This document shows, piece after piece, positions 5,425 to 49,304 of a DNA stretch of 64,000 nt (positions are counted from its first letter, which is position 1; each line of letters starts with the position of its first letter). Under the pieces are notes generated by a model. It was not told the DNA's origin, made no database searches, and was given only the letters and a program-made list of their open reading frames with translations. The translations under genes were made by a program, and so were the position numbers. The DNA lies in NCBI GenBank assembly GCA_019894975.1, contig JAGXNO010000004.1, forward strand, positions 61,721 to 125,720, written 5' to 3'. Source of the DNA: Promethearchaeota archaeon. Lineage in GTDB: Archaea > Asgardarchaeota > Lokiarchaeia > Sigyniarchaeales > SOKP01.

Positions 5425-6780
5425 TTAAGTTAAATTACGAAATTCGGTAATTGTTTTTTGGAGTTTTTCAAGTAAAATTCTAATCTCTGAATAACTATCT
5501 TTTACTGGTTTTAATTCTGTATCTATTTCTTCAAATTTACCATCAATTTGTGTATTAAAGGGAATGGTAACTTTTTCTAGATTCTCAGAAATACTTTTCA
5601 TAAGGTTTTTTATCTCATCATCTTTATCTGAGGTTAAATTATTTAATTCCATTATTGATGTTGATATCTGAGAGTTTAAATTTGAAGTTGATTCTAAAGC
5701 ATCTAATACTTCTTGTACTTTTCCTTCAAATGGGGTGGTTTTACTGTTTATTTGATTATCAATTGTTATTTTTGATTCTTCTATTGCGGAGTTTAGAATT
5801 TGAGAAATCTCAGTTTTTAATTCCTTCTGACCTTCAACACGTTTATTGATATATTCAGTAATATTTTTCTTAAAAAGACTAGAAATTTCCTCAAATGTAC
5901 TATTAAAATATTTTTTAACATCTCTTAGGCCGTCAGAAAGAGTATTTTTCAATTGATTTATCGATCTACTAATATGTTTCATACCCTTTAGAGTTCCTTG
6001 AGTTACGTCACCAACCCATACATTAAATTGAGTCTCATACGTATCAGCAAGAGCTTCATTTAATTTTGTGAATCCATTATTAAATCCAGAAGTTATCTGA
6101 TTAACCTGTTCTGAATAATCCTTCACGGTTTCATCTATTAAATCTTCTGTTGATAAAGGGATATCTTGAAGTTCTCTTAAAGATTGTTCCTTAATCTCAT
6201 TAATCATAACTGGAGACAATCTTTGAGAATCTTCTGCAAACTTCTGAACCCACCTAAAGAAATTTAAATTAGACGGTATCTCGAGCTCATACGAGATTTC
6301 AAAATAATCATTTGATTTTTTATATTCTTTTAATGAATTAATTGCAAATCCAAATCCCCTTTCTTTGCCCATTAGTGTATGATCAAAGATAATTACGAAA
6401 CCATGAGGATTTTTGTCTGTTTGGATAAACTTATGATTTTGAATAGTTATTTCAGTAAAATCTAGGCCCCATCCAGGCCTTGAGAGATACCAACCTACTA
6501 TTTTCATGTCTTTTTCTTGATATTCCTTTTCTAATCCAGCAAATAATTCAATATCTTCTTTAGAGAACCCTGTTGATACGTGAATTCCATGTTGAATTGG
6601 AATAATGTTTAATAAATTGATGACTTTGCTAGTTTCATCAACATTTCCTATACAAATACCCATAACTTCTATGCTTTCATCCAGTGCTTCATTTCCGAAT
6701 CTTAATACATGAGTCATCATTCGAATAAAAGCATCTGCCTTGATTATGACTTTAAAATCACTAATTCCGTGTGGCGACAT
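5425..6780 (-). CDS. MPN-minus (catalytically degenerate JAB1/MPN) domain plus long coiled coil
   Basis: EVMGICIG and GWYLSRPGWG where the active motif is GWYHSHPG; heptad-rich C-terminus. Confidence 0.8.
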   Translation of the reverse strand: MSPHGISDFKVIIKADAFIRMMTHVLRFGNEALDESIEVMGICIGNVDETSKVINLLNIIPIQHGIHVSTGFSKEDIELFAGLEKEYQEKDMKIVGWYLSRPGWGLDFTEITIQNHKFIQTDKNPHGFVIIFDHTLMGKERGFGFAINSLKEYKKSNDYFEISYELEIPSNLNFFRWVQKFAEDSQRLSPVMINEIKEQSLRELQDIPLSTEDLIDETVKDYSEQVNQITSGFNNGFTKLNEALADTYETQFNVWVGDVTQGTLKGMKHISRSINQLKNTLSDGLRDVKKYFNSTFEEISSLFKKNITEYINKRVEGQKELKTEISQILNSAIEESKITIDNQINSKTTPFEGKVQEVLDALESTSNLNSQISTSIMELNNLTSDKDDEIKNLMKSISENLEKVTIPFNTQIDGKFEEIDTELKPVKDSYSEIRILLEKLQKTITEFRNLT

Positions 6781-6786
6781 TTTTTT

Positions 6787-8277
6787 CTAGTCTCCTCCCT
6801 TTTCAAACTTATTTATTTTATTTGATAATTCTTGATTCTCAGCTCTAAGATCCTTCACTGTCTTTTGTAATTCCTTATTTTCTGTTTGTAATGTACTCAA
6901 TTTATTCTTGATAGGATTCTTTGAGCTTTCTAATAATATAATCGCTGCTTTTAAATCAGATAAGTAGTTTTTTGTTTCTTTATATAGATTATTAAGATTT
7001 CCTTTAATTTTACTAACCTTTTTATTAAAACTTGTTAATAGATCTTCTTGTACGGTGTTTAAATCGCTTTGAATTAGATTATTTATCGACTTATATTTTT
7101 CTGTGTATTTTTTTAGGGCACTACTTCCCCCATTTAAACTTTTAATATTATTTGAGAAATTATTATTAAAATCTGATATATTATTTGAGATTTTTTCCAT
7201 CTTTTCTAAAAGTTGTGTAAATCCTTTATCTTCAAATGAGCTTCTAATTTGATTTATACACTCGTCTTTTGATTTCTTAACCAACTCTTCAATTTTCTCT
7301 TTTTCATTATCTAAATCTTCAAGTTTATCATCAACGTAGAAATCTAAATCTTTTATATCATTTTGTAAATTATAATTGAAGGATTGCTGTAATGTTATAA
7401 TCTCATTACTCAATTTATCCCTAATCTCTTTTAAATCATTACGTATTCCCGTATTATTAATAGAAATCTTACCTACTATATCCTGTCCCCACGTATTTAA
7501 GAAGTATACCATAGGTTTAATTGATGATTCTAGAAAATTATCCATTCCATTTTTTAAAGTGGTAATAATTTCATCAAATCGTACTTCAGGTAATTTTGAT
7601 TCTATTTGCTCATCTTCAGGGATAAAAACATCACTAAATAAATCAACAGTTTCATTTAACTCAAGAATTTGGGGAACTCCCGTATGAACTTTGTTAATTA
7701 AGTCCACGATTTTCAAATAAAATTCAAGATTATCAGGAAATATTACATTTGCGTTTACTTCATGGTAATCTGATTTTAAAGCTAAGGAAGGGTCATCTAG
7801 ATTCGTTTCACTTAGTCTAAATGCTCTAAATCCAAGTTCATTTGGTTTTTCAAGATATGTGTGATCAAACACTAAACCTATACCACTTGGATTTTTTTGC
7901 CAAAAAATTTGGTTATATTTGTCAGTTTCACTAAAGAATATACCCAATCCTGGATGTGAATGGTACCATCCAACAGAAAACCAACCAAGATCACCATATT
8001 GCTCCCATATTTTCGTATCTAATTCTCCAAACGCTCCCAATTGATCAACCGAGAATTTAACTTCTATTGTGCCTCCATGAGAAACGGGTACTACATCTTC
8101 AATAATTACATTTTTAATTTCACCTTCTCCTTCAAGACGGCCAATCAAAACACCCATAACTTCAGATAATTTTGCATGTTCAATATATTTTGAACCAAAA
8201 CGTAACACATGAAGTAACATCTTATAGTAAGCAAGGGGTTTAATTGTTACTACACTTTGATCATTAATATTCCCCAT
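6787..8277 (-). CDS. MPN+/JAMM metalloprotease (Rpn11/CSN5-like) plus long coiled coil
   Basis: EVMGVLIG ... GWYHSHPGLGIFFSETD, an intact E/HxH-x7-SxxD motif. Confidence 0.88.
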   Translation of the reverse strand: MGNINDQSVVTIKPLAYYKMLLHVLRFGSKYIEHAKLSEVMGVLIGRLEGEGEIKNVIIEDVVPVSHGGTIEVKFSVDQLGAFGELDTKIWEQYGDLGWFSVGWYHSHPGLGIFFSETDKYNQIFWQKNPSGIGLVFDHTYLEKPNELGFRAFRLSETNLDDPSLALKSDYHEVNANVIFPDNLEFYLKIVDLINKVHTGVPQILELNETVDLFSDVFIPEDEQIESKLPEVRFDEIITTLKNGMDNFLESSIKPMVYFLNTWGQDIVGKISINNTGIRNDLKEIRDKLSNEIITLQQSFNYNLQNDIKDLDFYVDDKLEDLDNEKEKIEELVKKSKDECINQIRSSFEDKGFTQLLEKMEKISNNISDFNNNFSNNIKSLNGGSSALKKYTEKYKSINNLIQSDLNTVQEDLLTSFNKKVSKIKGNLNNLYKETKNYLSDLKAAIILLESSKNPIKNKLSTLQTENKELQKTVKDLRAENQELSNKINKFEKGGD

Positions 8278-8419
8278 TATAGATTCACTAGTTTTTTCAA
8301 ATTTATGATATATATATGGTTTGTATGGTTTTAAATATTTGAATAAAAAGTATTTAATTTAAAAAGAACTATTTTTTAATTCTACCCTAAAAAATCCATA
8401 AGTAAATAATAGGATGGTT

Positions 8420-9064
8420 TTAGACGTGTGGTAATGGTTTACCACAATAGGGGCAAAATTTCCAATCTAAATCCTTCCCGCAATGTGGACAAAAACTCGA
8501 TGCTTTTGAGGGAGTTGGTGCTACATCTCCCATTCCTTGTTTTGGGATGGAAGGTAATTCCCTAGTTGTCTTCAATGTTGCAGTATGATCATCTTCTTTC
8601 CTAGCAGCAACAGTAGCTTTAAAAGCTTCCCTTCTCTCTTCTTCGAGTTCTTGTTGAGTTTTTTCTCCCTCAACTTTAACCCATCCTTGAACTTGAGGTC
8701 TTTTCAATTCACTTTCAGGTACTTTTTCCAATTCAACTGAATTTGTTTCTGATAATGGGGCTACTACCTTTCTTTCTTCTTTCTTTTGAATTGCTTGTTT
8801 AACTAAGGCTTGTGTAGTCTTCATAACCTGATGAGGATTAATATTAGGAATTGCTACTGTACGTAAAACCCAACCTACGATAAGATTTTGATTTGGGAAT
8901 CCACCCTGAACATCTTCATCCTTATAAACATAGGAATCAATTACATCTCTTCCTTTTAACAGACGCGAGGCCCATTTATCATTAATCAATCCCAATTGGA
9001 TTCGATAGCTGGTTCCTGCAATACCCAATTGGCTTGTTAGTGGTTCAAATCCTCTTTCGGTCAC
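8420..9064 (-). CDS. Hypothetical protein with C-terminal zinc ribbon (two CPxCG knuckles)
   Basis: CPHCGK...CPYCGK; GTG start. Confidence 0.7.
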   Translation of the reverse strand: MTERGFEPLTSQLGIAGTSYRIQLGLINDKWASRLLKGRDVIDSYVYKDEDVQGGFPNQNLIVGWVLRTVAIPNINPHQVMKTTQALVKQAIQKKEERKVVAPLSETNSVELEKVPESELKRPQVQGWVKVEGEKTQQELEEERREAFKATVAARKEDDHTATLKTTRELPSIPKQGMGDVAPTPSKASSFCPHCGKDLDWKFCPYCGKPLPHV

Positions 9065-9320
9065 ATTTAATCACATTTTATCTAATAATTATTTGAAATA
9101 AGTAATATTATAATGGTAAATTTTGAATTTAAATTCTTATTTATCTCATGCTAAAATTTATTTCTATTATTAAAAGTTTTTTGGAATGGAATAATCCAAT
9201 AATTCAAATTATCCCATTTTCCTTATGTAAAAAAAAGATATAAATACAAAAATTTGTATTAATTTGTAAAATAATTATTAAAAACAGTTTTACTAAAAAA
9301 TAGGAATACTGGTTGAAAAA

Positions 9321-10308
9321 ATGACAGTAATAATCCAAAAAAGAGCTTACTTAACAATCGTAGCCGCATCAGTGAGATTTGCTAATGTCCGCATACCTAA
9401 AGATGATTGGTTAGAAGTGAGTGGTATTTTTACAGGTCGAAATGAAGGAAATGATGTTTTGGTTTCTAAAGCTTATCCCATTATGCATCAAGAACTAGAT
9501 AAAGATGCTGTTATCGATCAATACAAATGGTCAGATGAAGACTATGAATCACTTTATGTTATTGATGATGAAGCTTTTTCAAGAGATCCTCCTGAATTTG
9601 TTGTTGGTTGGTGGCACTCACATCCTGGTTTTATTTGAACTGGACTTACCAGACTTCAACTAAAAGGTTATGATGTCACATATCGATATTCGAACCACTC
9701 TCTCTTATCAGCAAAATAATCCTTTAGCAATTTCACTTGTATTTAATCCTCAAAGATTAATAAGACAAATTGAAGTTGCTGATAAAAAGGGAGACCCTGA
9801 TAAACAATTAAAAAATGATCCTGGGTTTAAAATTTTCCGATTAGATGATGTTAATAGTGGAACAGAAGCCTCTTATCATACTGCTGACTTTAAAATTGAA
9901 GAATATGAAAGCATGGAGCAGTTATTAAGGCTTACCCAAAAATTCATTGTTGATATAACTAATTTATTCCCAAAAGAGAAAGTTCCGCAAACTTATGAAA
10001 AAGTTGTGGATGAACGAATAGAACAATTAAACTCATTACTATTAGGTACTGAAGAATATTTAACAACATTAACCCGTCGTGGTGAAAAACATCGGATTCC
10101 CGAGGTACTAGAAAATCAAAATCAAGAAATTAACAGATTTATTGAAGAAACAAATAAGAAGATAGAGTTTATAAGAGAATTTATTGGATATTTAGAATTT
10201 AAAGAAAGAGACACTATAGTTCCTCAAGTGGAAAAGAATTTATCAAAGTGGGACGAGACTACGAAGGGTTTAGGAAAAAAGCTGAAAGATCTTTCCAAAA
10301 AGTTTTAA
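9321..10308 (+). CDS. MPN+/JAMM protease plus helical C-terminus; join(9321..9632,9664..10308), 318 aa after splicing
   Basis: ORFs 9321-9638 and 9670-10308 fuse after removing 9633-9663, giving GWWHSHPGF/KVMMSHID with exact HxH-x7-SxxD spacing. Confidence 0.85.
9633..9663 (+). other. Putative 31-nt BHB/BHL-type intron in mRNA
   Basis: Exon stem CCT/AGG; 4-bp helix GGTT(9627-30)/AACT(9658-61); 3-nt 3' bulge AA^A; 5' site TT^A; internal hairpin GAA-CTGG..CCAG-AC-TTC. Confidence 0.8.
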
Positions 10309-10445
10309 CCACTTTACAATCAAAAATATTTTTCATCTTATTTTTAATTTTGATAAATTTTTATTTGATTAAGCGTTAATTTGATTAAGAAAACTACGAG
10401 TCAAAATAATCGCTCTCTAGAGAAATAAAGATTGTATCTTCTATT

Positions 10446-12650
10446 ATGAAAAAACTTAATTTTCCATTCACAGCAATTCTCGGACAAGACAAGATGAAAA
10501 TGGGTTTAATTCTTAACCTAATTGATCCTTTAATTGGGGGAATCTTGATGACAGGTCAACAGGGTACAGGAAAAAGCACTGCTGTTAGAAGTCTCGTGGA
10601 ATTAATGCCCCAAATCGAAGTTATTAAAGGCTGCGATTTTTCTTGTGATCCTTATTCAGATGTAGATGATGTATGTGAAAACTGCAAAGAAAAAATCGAA
10701 AATAAAAATGTCGAAACGGAATTTAGAGACATGTGGTTGGTAAATCTACCTTTAGGGGTAACTGAGGACATGGTATGTGGCTCATTATCTATCGACAAGG
10801 TACTTACAGAGGGAATAAGAGCTTTACATCCTGGACTACTTGCTAAAGCAAATCGAGGAATTTTATATGTAGATGAAATTAATTTACTTCAGGATCATAT
10901 TGTTGATGTATTATTGGATTCTGCTGCTTCTGGTGTTAATATAATAGAAAGAGAGGGTATTTCAGTCTATCATCCCTCCAGATTCGTTCTTGTAGGAAGC
11001 ATGAATCCTGAAGAAGGAGACCTAAGACCACAAATTGCCGATCGTTTGGGTTTAGAGGTTCGGATCAAAGCCCCAAGAGATAATGAATTACGCGCTGAGA
11101 TAACCAAAAGAGTTATTAGTTTTGATGATAATCCAAAGGAATATATTAAACAATTTGAAAGTGACCAGGAAACACTCAGGAAGAAAATCATAAATGCTCG
11201 TAAGCTCGTAAAAGAAGTGCAAATACCTGGTTCAATATATGAATTTGTATCTAAAATCGTGAGTGAATTAGAAATATTCTCTCAAAGAGCAGATATTACT
11301 TTTATTCGATGTGCAAGAGCTAACGCTGCTTTAAATGCTAGGAAATTGATAACTAATGAAGATTTGACAGTAGCAATGGATTTGGTCTTTGAACACAGAA
11401 TTCAATCACTTCAATACGAAATGACTCCTGAAGAGATTAAATCTAAGATTGCAGAAGTTTATGGAAAAATTAAAGAAGCTTATGAAGATACGAATGTTCT
11501 TCAACCTAATCGAGAAACCGAGGGACCATTAAAACATGATGATGGGGAACAAAAAGAGTTTAAACGCCAATCTGTCGATCCTAATAAAGTAGATATCCCA
11601 GAATCAAGAGAACAGAAGCTCCCTCCGCCCAAATATCCTGATGATAAGAAGAGAAATCCTAAACCTGCTGGAGGTTGGAAAGTTAAAAATATTCCATATG
11701 ATGAAGATCTTCGATTTTTTGAAGCTAAAAATTCATCTCTACCATTTATATATCAAATGGAAAAAAAGATGACTTCCATCCTAGACAATATAAGAAAGGA
11801 TCGAAAGATTTCTGATTATGGAGGTAGAGGAATAGGTAGAAGAATTAAGATATCTTCATCTCAAAAAGGCAGATATGTATCATACAGATCACCTATGAGT
11901 GAACAGCCAAAACGGATTGCGTTAGATGCAACAATTAGGAATTATCTAAAAAATATAGCCTATAATGAAACTGATATAGATTTTCCAATACATTTTAACA
12001 AATATGATTTAATGGATAAGATTTATGAATACCGTGCTCCTTTAGCTCTTTTTTTTGTACTAGATAGTTCTGCATCCATGTATCATGTAATTAGACAAAT
12101 GACTGATGTAATATTAAGTCTGCATCGAGAAGGATATAGAAAAAGAGATAAAATATCTCTAATAATTTTTCGCGGTAAACAAGCTGTAGTTCTTCAGAAT
12201 CCCACTGTTAACTTTCAGATGGCGGTTAATAAATTGAAAAAGATCGAAGGTAAATCATACACACCCATGGCTGCAGCCCTTAAAAAGGTTTCAGATCTTA
12301 TCAAAATTGAAAAATTAAAGGATAGGAACATTATCCCAATTGTATTTGTATGTAGTGATTGTGGTGCTAATATTTCGGTCAAACATCCCGGTTTAATAGC
12401 TCAAGTTGAAACTGATTATATGTTAATTACAGAAGAACTGAAAGATTTAACAAAGAAATTATCAAAACAAAAAATACATATGGTGGTGCTGGAACCAAAA
12501 AAATCTTATGCTACTCAAGCTCTGGGGGTTCATACTTATTCCGCAGATAAAATTAAAAAGAATTTTAAAAAATATGCTGCTGCTCAGGTATATAAATTTA
12601 ACAAATACAATCCCAATTCATTAATTTTGGAATTGAAAAAAATTCTTTAG
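10446..12650 (+). CDS. Mg/Co-chelatase ChlI/ChlD-like AAA+ ATPase with C-terminal VWA domain
   Basis: Walker A GQQGTGKS, LYVDEINLL, SMNPEEG, Pro-rich linker, MIDAS DSSAS. Confidence 0.88.
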   Translation: MKKLNFPFTAILGQDKMKMGLILNLIDPLIGGILMTGQQGTGKSTAVRSLVELMPQIEVIKGCDFSCDPYSDVDDVCENCKEKIENKNVETEFRDMWLVNLPLGVTEDMVCGSLSIDKVLTEGIRALHPGLLAKANRGILYVDEINLLQDHIVDVLLDSAASGVNIIEREGISVYHPSRFVLVGSMNPEEGDLRPQIADRLGLEVRIKAPRDNELRAEITKRVISFDDNPKEYIKQFESDQETLRKKIINARKLVKEVQIPGSIYEFVSKIVSELEIFSQRADITFIRCARANAALNARKLITNEDLTVAMDLVFEHRIQSLQYEMTPEEIKSKIAEVYGKIKEAYEDTNVLQPNRETEGPLKHDDGEQKEFKRQSVDPNKVDIPESREQKLPPPKYPDDKKRNPKPAGGWKVKNIPYDEDLRFFEAKNSSLPFIYQMEKKMTSILDNIRKDRKISDYGGRGIGRRIKISSSQKGRYVSYRSPMSEQPKRIALDATIRNYLKNIAYNETDIDFPIHFNKYDLMDKIYEYRAPLALFFVLDSSASMYHVIRQMTDVILSLHREGYRKRDKISLIIFRGKQAVVLQNPTVNFQMAVNKLKKIEGKSYTPMAAALKKVSDLIKIEKLKDRNIIPIVFVCSDCGANISVKHPGLIAQVETDYMLITEELKDLTKKLSKQKIHMVVLEPKKSYATQALGVHTYSADKIKKNFKKYAAAQVYKFNKYNPNSLILELKKIL

Positions 12651-48563: not shown

Positions 48564-49304
48564 TTACATATCATGCAGAACGTTATCTATAGAGAGGACA
48601 AATCCTAACAAGATCCTTCTATCTGTTTCATTGTCGAGTATCCTTAATGCGTATGTATCCTTAAAATCCATTAATCCACCAAGAAATACGTCTCTCCACC
48701 TGTCAGCCTTCTCAATTTCTGCAATTAATTTTCCTGACATGTCAGTAACTTTATAGGACCATCCCATAAATTTACCCTGAGCTTCGAAATACCTTTTTCC
48801 ATTAACATCTTCTAAGTAAAACTTCGGTCGGAAGACAGAAGTTATTTTTTTCTTTATCCTGGCTATCATATTCCCATATGGATCTTTTAAATCCTGAGCT
48901 CCGCGAGCTGAGACAATCTTGGCGTGAATTGTTGCTGCAATAGTACCATCTAATTCGATTAATTCAACTCTGCGTCTTATACTTAAGATAACTCTTTTCA
49001 TCCTCCCTATTACCTGGTTTTTTTCATCTAAGATATCACCGCTACCCCATTTGGGTTTAAATCTGGAGAAGATTTAAATATCCCAGTATTTTTCTTTGAG
49101 AATAAAATAATTGCGGTTAATATCGAATAGTCCCCCAGGACGATCATAAGGTTCAAACCCTAGTGTTGTTATGGGAGTACTTGTTGATGGTGTAGAAACG
49201 ACTTCCCTTTGTTGTTGAGGAGATGGTATTGCTGAACCACATTTCTCACAGAAGTGCTGATTTTCGGGATCTTTTATTTCAGCCCCACAATCTTTACAAA
49301 ACAT
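48564..49304 (-). CDS. Zinc-ribbon plus LURP-one/scramblase (tubby C-like) protein; join of 49304..49080 and 49049..48564, 236 aa after splicing
   Basis: CKDCG..CEKCG N-terminus; spliced junction KEKYWD/WGSGDILDEKNQVIGRMKR; C-terminal DTYAL..RRILLGFVLSID. Confidence 0.82.
49050..49079 (-). other. Putative 30-nt canonical BHB intron in mRNA
   Basis: TGGG[AT^A]TTTAAATCT-TCTCC-AGATTTAAA-CCCA[AA^T]: 4-bp helix TGGG/CCCA, two 3-nt bulges, 9-bp intron stem; contains in-frame TAA. Confidence 0.85.

What the first reader, a model, noticed from the sequence alone, without database searches (positions are those of the whole stretch)
9611..9679. tRNA-type (BHB/BHL) micro-intron inside the catalytic JAMM motif of an MPN protease gene
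Seen: ORF 9321 stops just after GWWHSHPGF and a second ORF in another frame begins KVMMSHID. Removing exactly 9633-9663 (ATTTGAACTGGACTTACCAGACTTCAACTAA, 31 nt) gives HSHPGFKVMMSHID. This is the HxH-x7-SxxD zinc-binding spacing, identical to the intact paralog at 6787-8277. The junctions also fold as an archaeal splicing motif: exon stem CCT(9624-26)/AGG(9665-67), extended by GTGGCA(9611-16)/TGTCAC(9674-79); 3-nt bulge AAA(9662-64); central 4-bp helix GGUU/AACU; then a 5' loop starting UUA and an intron hairpin. Established: archaeal EndA cuts after the second nucleotide of each bulge, which predicts cuts at 9632^9633 and 9663^9664, matching the frame-restoring boundaries. The 5' side is a 6-nt loop, so this is a relaxed BHL-type motif. 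The archaeal mRNA intron precedent I know is crenarchaeal cbf5. Inference: expression of this deubiquitinase-like enzyme depends on splicing.
Basis: partly seen in the sequence, partly recalled or inferred. Interest (0 to 1): 0.95.

Follow-up and report, generated by a model that had tools for sequence, protein, structure and literature searches.

The report
tRNA-type mini-intron in Asgard protease gene
A 31-base insert shaped like an archaeal tRNA intron breaks the active site of a deubiquitinase-like gene in an Asgard archaeon, and comparison with about 50 related genes indicates it is cut out of the mRNA, something the papers I could search report inside only one other archaeal coding gene (cbf5).

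Summary
Confirmed. Removing 9633-9663 joins two ORFs into a 318-aa MPN+/JAMM protein matching intact orthologues. The host is a Promethearchaeota (Loki-type Asgard) archaeon. Twelve of 50 same-genus genomes carry a 29-32-nt insert at this exact codon boundary, in all three frame classes. The 4-bp exon-intron helix pairs in 48 of 48 cells, with compensatory changes (GGUU/AACU, GGCU/AGCU, GACU/AGUU). Several carriers have a full intron-side helix; this one has the relaxed form. Carrier genes stay under purifying selection (branch dN/dS 0.08-0.26, like intron-less sisters). The genome encodes a two-subunit EndA with the broad-specificity loop, plus RtcB. I found two more such introns in this genome (window 49050-49079 and a dodecin-like gene). 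Carriers are scattered on the tree, and the near-identical 'type A' intron is not one clade on a neighbour-gene tree, which hints at lateral movement. Not shown: a spliced RNA (no run covered the junction); the motif fold here is 3.9 kcal/mol above the predicted minimum. This scan found this intron class many times before on other DNA, including this same intron in another genome (e1-5554146).

The parts
9321..9632 (+). Exon 1 of the MPN+/JAMM gene (codons 1-104; catalytic E32 and zinc ligands H99, H101)
   Evidence: (Pfam JAB, E 4e-8)
9633..9663 (+). 31-nt relaxed BHB (hBH / BHL-type) intron; in-frame TGA 9636-38; inner hairpin 9637-9657
9664..10308 (+). Exon 2 (codons 105-318; S109 at 9676-78, zinc ligand D112 at 9685-87; long helical tail)
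9627..9630 (+). 5' strand (exon) of the central 4-bp helix, GGUU
   Evidence: pairs in all 12 carriers with compensatory changes
9658..9661 (+). 3' strand (intron) of the central 4-bp helix, AACU
9631..9636 (+). 5' bulge/loop; predicted cut 9632^9633
   Evidence: a strict 3-nt bulge with an adjoining intron helix in 7 of 12 carriers
9662..9664 (+). 3' bulge AAA; predicted cut 9663^9664
   Evidence: AA^A in 11 of 12 carriers, AG^A in one
9611..9679 (+). Whole splice-motif region including exon-exon helices 9624-26/9665-67 and 9611-16/9674-79
49050..49079 (-). Second BHB micro-intron of this window (30 nt, in-frame stop) in the zinc-ribbon + LURP-one/scramblase-like gene 49304 to 48564
   Evidence: central UGGG/CCCA, 9-bp intron helix; absent in G025, G107, G018, G098

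Best explanation
[quoted passage not shown] The pre-mRNA folds into a relaxed bulge-helix-bulge motif. The two-subunit splicing endonuclease EndA cuts after the second base of each bulge (9632^9633, 9663^9664). RtcB joins the exons, and the mRNA then encodes a 318-aa MPN+/JAMM zinc protease with a helical tail. Unspliced mRNA gives a 105-aa fragment that lacks S109 and D112 and should be inactive. Shown here: the insert, its exact position, the covarying helix, selection on both exons and the presence of the enzymes. Inferred: cleavage, ligation and protease activity. The intron is most likely a tolerated passenger that is gained and lost precisely, not a needed regulatory switch.
For: (1) Same-site inserts of 29, 30, 31 and 32 nt in 12 of 50 genus genomes; removal restores a full-length ORF with the invariant motif in all 12. 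(2) Central helix 48/48 pairs with two-sided changes; permutation p=0.004. The correct register scores 48, the best slid register 44 and most far lower. (3) The exon codon inside the helix is GGC/GGT/GAC in 12/12 carriers; GGC in 9/12 carriers versus 1/37 non-carriers; GGA/GGG in 18/37 non-carriers and never in carriers. (4) Register fixed by G098 and G103 at the EndA-predicted cuts. (5) Branch dN/dS 0.08-0.26 in carriers versus 0.09-0.33 in intron-less sisters; 0.17-0.18 on this genome's branch; pairwise 0.07-0.17 among carriers, in both exons. (6) Two EndA paralogues and RtcB in the genome. The catalytic subunit is closest to the structure whose numbering matches Aeropyrum pernix EndA (3p1z, E 1e-34), with Y143/H151/K182 and the specificity-loop lysine K60 = K44, which PMC3241643 shows is needed for BHL cleavage. 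(7) Two further ORF-breaking 30-nt inserts in this genome have perfect central helices at the frame-restoring cuts.
Against: No RNA covers the junction, and no exact spliced junction of this allele is in the metagenome collection. In this genome and G026 the motif fold is about 4 kcal/mol above the minimum and the central helix has probability about 0.01, so splicing here may be inefficient. Kin are not independent, so the permutation p overstates. Part of this genome's terminal branch may predate the intron, which weakens the branch dN/dS for this one allele.
Confidence: 0.9

Rival explanations
1. Translational recoding: the ribosome hops over or frameshifts across the insert (gene 60 / byp style), with no RNA cutting.
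For: The insert has a hairpin and an early stop right after the junction, as in bypass elements (own knowledge); no spliced RNA was seen.
Against: No usable matched take-off/landing codon pair exists in G000, G004, G026 or G096, and none is shared by all carriers. Lengths 29-32 need three different frame changes. The conserved feature is the exon-intron 4-bp helix with 3-nt bulges, which is the EndA substrate.
Confidence: 0.03
2. Pseudogene: the insert inactivates a dispensable third MPN paralogue, either in all carriers or only in the alleles whose motif folds poorly (such as this one).
For: Two other MPN genes lie beside it; the fold in this genome is unfavourable in silico; dN/dS on this branch (0.18) is above that of G107 (0.085), though equal to G025 (0.16).
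Against: No second lesion in any of 12 carrier genes; all JAMM residues kept; carrier pairs such as G015/G013 and the G004 group show dN/dS 0.10-0.17; this allele carries a two-sided helix change relative to the near-identical G098 and G004 introns.
Confidence: 0.04
3. Split gene: two separately translated halves (105 aa, and 212 aa from ATG 9670) assemble into one enzyme.
For: An ATG lies at 9670, and both halves are under selection.
Against: The break lies inside the zinc-binding motif; the K-V codons between the insert and the ATG are kept in all 12 carriers; the first half would end in unrelated tails of 1-12 residues; the helix covariation is unexplained.
Confidence: 0.02
4. Assembly or sequencing artefact.
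For: All carriers appear to be metagenome assemblies; I had no DNA reads over the site for this genome.
Against: Twelve genomes plus one metagenome contig carry different but related inserts at the same base.
Confidence: 0.01

Closest known systems
cbf5 pre-mRNA intron of Crenarchaeota (Desulfurococcales, Sulfolobales; Watanabe 2002, Yoshinari 2006, Yokobori 2009 = PMC2738675)
   Same: Short intron of similar size (33 and 39 nt are quoted) in a coding sequence, at the catalytic motif, with BHB or relaxed motif, hetero-oligomeric EndA, variable frame effect and lineage-specific absence.
   Different: Different phylum (Promethearchaeota) and gene (JAMM protease). At least three genes per genome here, not one. 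cbf5 was read as one ancient gain with about two losses; here carriers are scattered among close species and the intron types conflict with the host tree. cbf5 splicing was shown by cDNA; this one is not yet.
BHB intron in the 5' UTR of Haloferax HVO_1309 (PMC7714728)
   Same: EndA substrate in an mRNA.
   Different: Lies in a UTR, 46 nt, does not break a reading frame.
Asgard tRNA introns (bioRxiv 10.64898/2026.10.13.758758)
   Same: Same superphylum, BHB motifs, repeated recent gains, two-subunit EndA, unknown route of arrival.
   Different: That census covers tRNA genes only; the word mRNA does not occur in its main text.
Host protein: MPN+/JAMM proteases CSN5, Rpn11, BRCC36 and archaeal CsRpn11
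   Same: E32, HxH-x7-SxxD motif, MPN fold followed by helices.
   Different: Only distant similarity (best E 1e-8); substrate and partners unknown; not assignable to one eukaryotic subfamily.

Membership tests
Archaeal BHB/BHL (EndA-spliced) mRNA intron, cbf5 type | 4-bp central helix between exon 1 and the intron 3' end | tested here: met
   48/48 pairs in 12 carriers, with compensatory changes
Archaeal BHB/BHL (EndA-spliced) mRNA intron, cbf5 type | 3-nt bulges (or one bulge and one loop) with at least one outer helix | tested here: met
   This allele: exon helix of 3 bp and 6-nt 5' loop (hBH). Five carriers have the exon helix directly; seven have an intron helix of 3-7 bp
Archaeal BHB/BHL (EndA-spliced) mRNA intron, cbf5 type | Cuts after the second base of each bulge restore the reading frame and the conserved protein | tested here: met
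   Gives [G/D]FKVM in 12/12; shifts of -1 or -2 fail in all, +1 fails in two
Archaeal BHB/BHL (EndA-spliced) mRNA intron, cbf5 type | Motif is a stable fold of the precursor | tested here: inconclusive
   Minimum-energy fold in 6 of 12 carriers; 3.9 kcal/mol above the minimum in this genome
Archaeal BHB/BHL (EndA-spliced) mRNA intron, cbf5 type | Host has a broad-specificity hetero-oligomeric EndA and RtcB | tested here: met
   Two EndA paralogues, catalytic triad and loop lysine conserved; RtcB present
Archaeal BHB/BHL (EndA-spliced) mRNA intron, cbf5 type | Spliced mRNA or excised intron observed | tested here: inconclusive
   RNA runs did not cover the gene; no spliced junction in the metagenome collection
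Archaeal BHB/BHL (EndA-spliced) mRNA intron, cbf5 type | Cleavage by EndA in vitro | not testable with these tools
   needs bench work
MPN+/JAMM metalloprotease | Catalytic Glu plus HxH-x7-SxxD in an MPN domain | tested here: met
   E32, H99, H101, S109, D112 invariant in 26 intact orthologues; Pfam JAB E 1e-12; PDB hits CSN5 and Rpn11
MPN+/JAMM metalloprotease | Isopeptidase activity on ubiquitin-like modifiers | not testable with these tools
   inferred from the family only
Translational bypass element (T4 gene 60 / byps) | Matched take-off and landing codons | tested here: not met
Repeated mobile element (MITE-like) | Multiple copies in the genome | tested here: not met
   Single copy in this genome; the type A core occurs only at this site, once each in 5 of 54 genomes

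The most novel reading that the evidence does not exclude
Loki-type Asgard archaea splice many mRNAs (very roughly 1% of genes) with the tRNA machinery, and these 30-nt introns, which encode no endonuclease, move laterally between species into the same codon of the orthologous gene with little or no flanking exon carried along.
Probability: 0.5. Interest if true: 0.85.

Novelty: new member of a known kind. Interest (0 to 1): 0.7.

Why it matters
The literature I could search confirms a BHB intron inside an archaeal coding sequence only for cbf5 (PMC2738675; PMC7714728 states this as of 2020). Introns in several protein genes of an Asgard archaeon would mean that the closest prokaryotic relatives of eukaryotes already splice mRNAs routinely, by the endonuclease-ligase route that eukaryotes use for tRNAs (own knowledge). 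In practice, gene callers split or truncate these genes, so inventories of Asgard eukaryotic-signature proteins (here a ubiquitin-system protease) can undercount. The allele series is a natural experiment: strict and relaxed motifs, and sisters with and without the intron at 89% protein identity. It makes intron gain, loss and transfer directly testable.

Tried and rejected
RNA evidence: three runs held only 6-13% of the stretch's words, and no contig covered the junction, so they say nothing either way. An exact spliced junction of this allele was not found in metagenome contigs. A wider pattern gave 11 loci: 4 with the intron, and 7 intron-less genes of distant relatives (72-76% identical to any reference), so no intron-less copy of a carrier allele. 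A motif-plus-ORF scan of the genome without homology was no better than slid controls (542 versus 512-547 loci) and gives no count; the first attempt timed out. The AlphaFold model has low confidence over residues 102-177, so it does not show active-site geometry. Type A monophyly on the MPN gene alone is only weakly rejected (AU 0.027 on DNA, 0.072 on protein); the neighbour-gene tree carries that claim. Rejected: artefact, MITE or repeat, selenocysteine or other stop read-through (lengths not divisible by three in 9 of 12 carriers), and ribosomal bypass. G109 (N-terminal half replaced by unrelated sequence) and G148 (1-nt frameshift elsewhere) were not scored as carriers.

Full report
Observation. 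The sequence is as described. ORF 9321-9638 stops at a TGA three bases into the insert, and a second frame opens at KVMMSHID. Removing 9633-9663 gives a 318-aa ORF whose motif HSHPGFKVMMSHID has JAMM spacing. The insert occurs once in the genome. On this sequence alone the case is modest: 6.8% of shuffled inserts give a full central helix. The motif fold is also 3.9 kcal/mol above the minimum-energy fold, in which the intron pairs with itself instead.

Host and gene. Most relatives are labelled Promethearchaeota; the genome has 31.6% GC. The intact orthologue matches Pfam JAB (E 1e-12) and, distantly, CSN5, Rpn11 and BRCC36. E32, H99, H101, S109 and D112 are invariant in 26 intact orthologues. 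The intron lies between F104 and K105, so it separates the two zinc histidines from the serine and aspartate. The gene is divergent from a zinc-ribbon gene and an MPN+/MPN- pair, and lies upstream of an AAA+/vWA gene.

Orthologues. Of 50 genus genomes with the gene, 12 are interrupted at this site. None of 71 matches in other genera of the family shows the same break, judged by open-frame length, which would miss a stop-free in-frame insert. I read the junction directly in 49 genes. Thirty-seven lack the insert, including the nearest relative G107 (89% identical). Twelve carry 29, 30, 31 or 32 nt at the same base, and removal restores a full-length ORF in each. The three 30-nt inserts contain in-frame stops. 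A thirteenth allele came from a metagenome contig.

Structure across alleles. The four exon bases and four intron bases that form the central helix pair in 48 of 48 cells: GGUU/AACU twice, GGCU/AGCU eight times, GGCU/AGUU and GACU/AGUU once each. Dealing the 3' strands out at random gives p=0.004 on 11 distinct alleles (relatedness not corrected). The best slid register reaches 44 of 48 and most score far lower. The 3' bulge is AA^A in 11 of 12. Seven alleles have a strict 3-nt 5' bulge with an intron helix of 3-7 bp; five, including this one, have the exon helix and a 5' loop. The exon codon in the helix is GGC, GGT or GAC in every carrier, while GGA or GGG occur in 18 of 37 non-carriers. Two alleles whose intron starts with G or C show that only the predicted cuts give the conserved FKV.

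Selection. Pairwise dN/dS among carriers is 0.07-0.17, in both exons. Branch counts give 0.08-0.26 for carriers and 0.09-0.33 for intron-less sisters. No carrier has a second lesion. The interrupted genes behave as working genes.

Machinery. The genome has two EndA paralogues and RtcB. The catalytic subunit is closest to 3p1z (E 1e-34), whose numbering matches Aeropyrum pernix EndA. It keeps Y143, H151, K182, R175, W199 and the loop residues K60 and R62, equal to K44 and R46. PMC3241643 shows that this loop lysine allows cleavage of bulge-helix-loop substrates. That fits the relaxed motif here; activity is inferred.

Not a single case. Comparing a 412-kb contig of G002 (267 genes with an orthologue) and syntenic stretches of other relatives showed two more ORF-breaking 30-nt inserts with perfect central helices in this genome. 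One is in a gene that looks like a dodecin (own reading of the sequence) at C124:316. The other is at window 49050-49079 (minus strand) in a zinc-ribbon + LURP-one-like gene. In that gene 12 of 30 orthologues carry an intron, at two sites four codons apart, all with 4/4 central pairs. Three in about 270 genes suggests roughly 1% of genes; this is a small sample.

History. Carriers do not form a clade (AU 1e-40), and most have intron-less sisters with full support. The introns fall into two sequence types. Type A (this genome, G098, G004, G096, G026) shares 26 or more bases, 28 of 31 between this genome and G004, although synonymous exon sites are near saturation (pS about 0.7). On a tree of five neighbouring genes a single split between A and B carriers is rejected (AU 3e-47). 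On the MPN gene alone the rejection is weak (0.027 DNA, 0.072 protein). So either the intron moved between lineages at least once or the type converged; I favour movement. Serine codons 4 codons upstream and 5 codons downstream differ between the two A groups, so any transferred flank was short. The types were defined from the sequences themselves, type B introns are also well conserved (20-27 matches), and rows G109 and G148 were left out. This remains a lead.

RNA. No run covered the junction, and no spliced junction of this allele was found in metagenome contigs. Splicing is therefore inferred, not seen.

Literature. PMC2738675 describes the cbf5 intron and says introns in other protein genes were only predicted. 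PMC7714728 adds a Haloferax 5' UTR intron and calls cbf5 the only other mRNA case. A 2026 preprint on Asgard tRNA introns does not treat mRNAs. Seven searches found no report of Asgard mRNA introns, but the library lacks most subscription journals.

Earlier notes of this scan. The class was noted many times, in other genomes and in other genes of this genome, and the same JAMM intron was followed up in another genome. Some notes claim RNA support for other genes; I did not check those and do not count them as evidence.

Verdict. A real EndA-type mRNA micro-intron with about 90% confidence. It is a new member of the cbf5 kind in a new phylum and gene, one of several in this genome, with a hint of lateral movement. 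It is probably not a regulatory switch, because close sisters do without it.

Noticed in passing
window 49050-49079 (-), gene 49304 to 48564: Second BHB micro-intron (30 nt, in-frame stop) in a zinc-ribbon + LURP-one/scramblase-like gene. Among 30 orthologues, 7 have an intron at this site and 5 have a different one four codons upstream; none of the 30 has both.
   Followed up: partly
G000 C124:316-345 (+): 30-nt BHB intron with a stop (central CAAG/CUUG, 8-bp intron helix) in a small gene that looks like a dodecin; the G002 orthologue lacks it.
   Followed up: partly
G000 C22:42270 (+) and C133:6801 (-): Candidate 30-nt and 38-nt BHB inserts from the motif scan whose removal gives plausible conserved peptides (the first looks like a dehydratase activase); not checked against orthologues.
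   Followed up: no
window 5425-12650: Cluster of three MPN genes with helical tails (MPN- 5425-6780, MPN+ 6787-8277, the intron-bearing MPN+), a zinc-ribbon gene and an AAA+/vWA (ChlI/ChlD-like) gene; the neighbours recur beside the gene in most relatives checked.
   Followed up: partly
G109 C2:12066-12644 (L056): The orthologue has lost its N-terminal half to unrelated sequence, possibly an inserted element; a real broken copy.
   Followed up: no
G148 C11 (L057:770-830): Orthologue with a 1-nt frameshift near codon 37, without an insert; assembly error or pseudogene.
   Followed up: no
G033 C86:2924-3448 and G073 C9:8080-8448: Part of exon 2 matches within open frames of 1181 and 1008 codons, perhaps a fused or distant paralogue.
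   Followed up: no
G000, contig not recorded: ARAGORN calls a selenocysteine tRNA and about a dozen intron-containing tRNAs in this genome.
   Followed up: no
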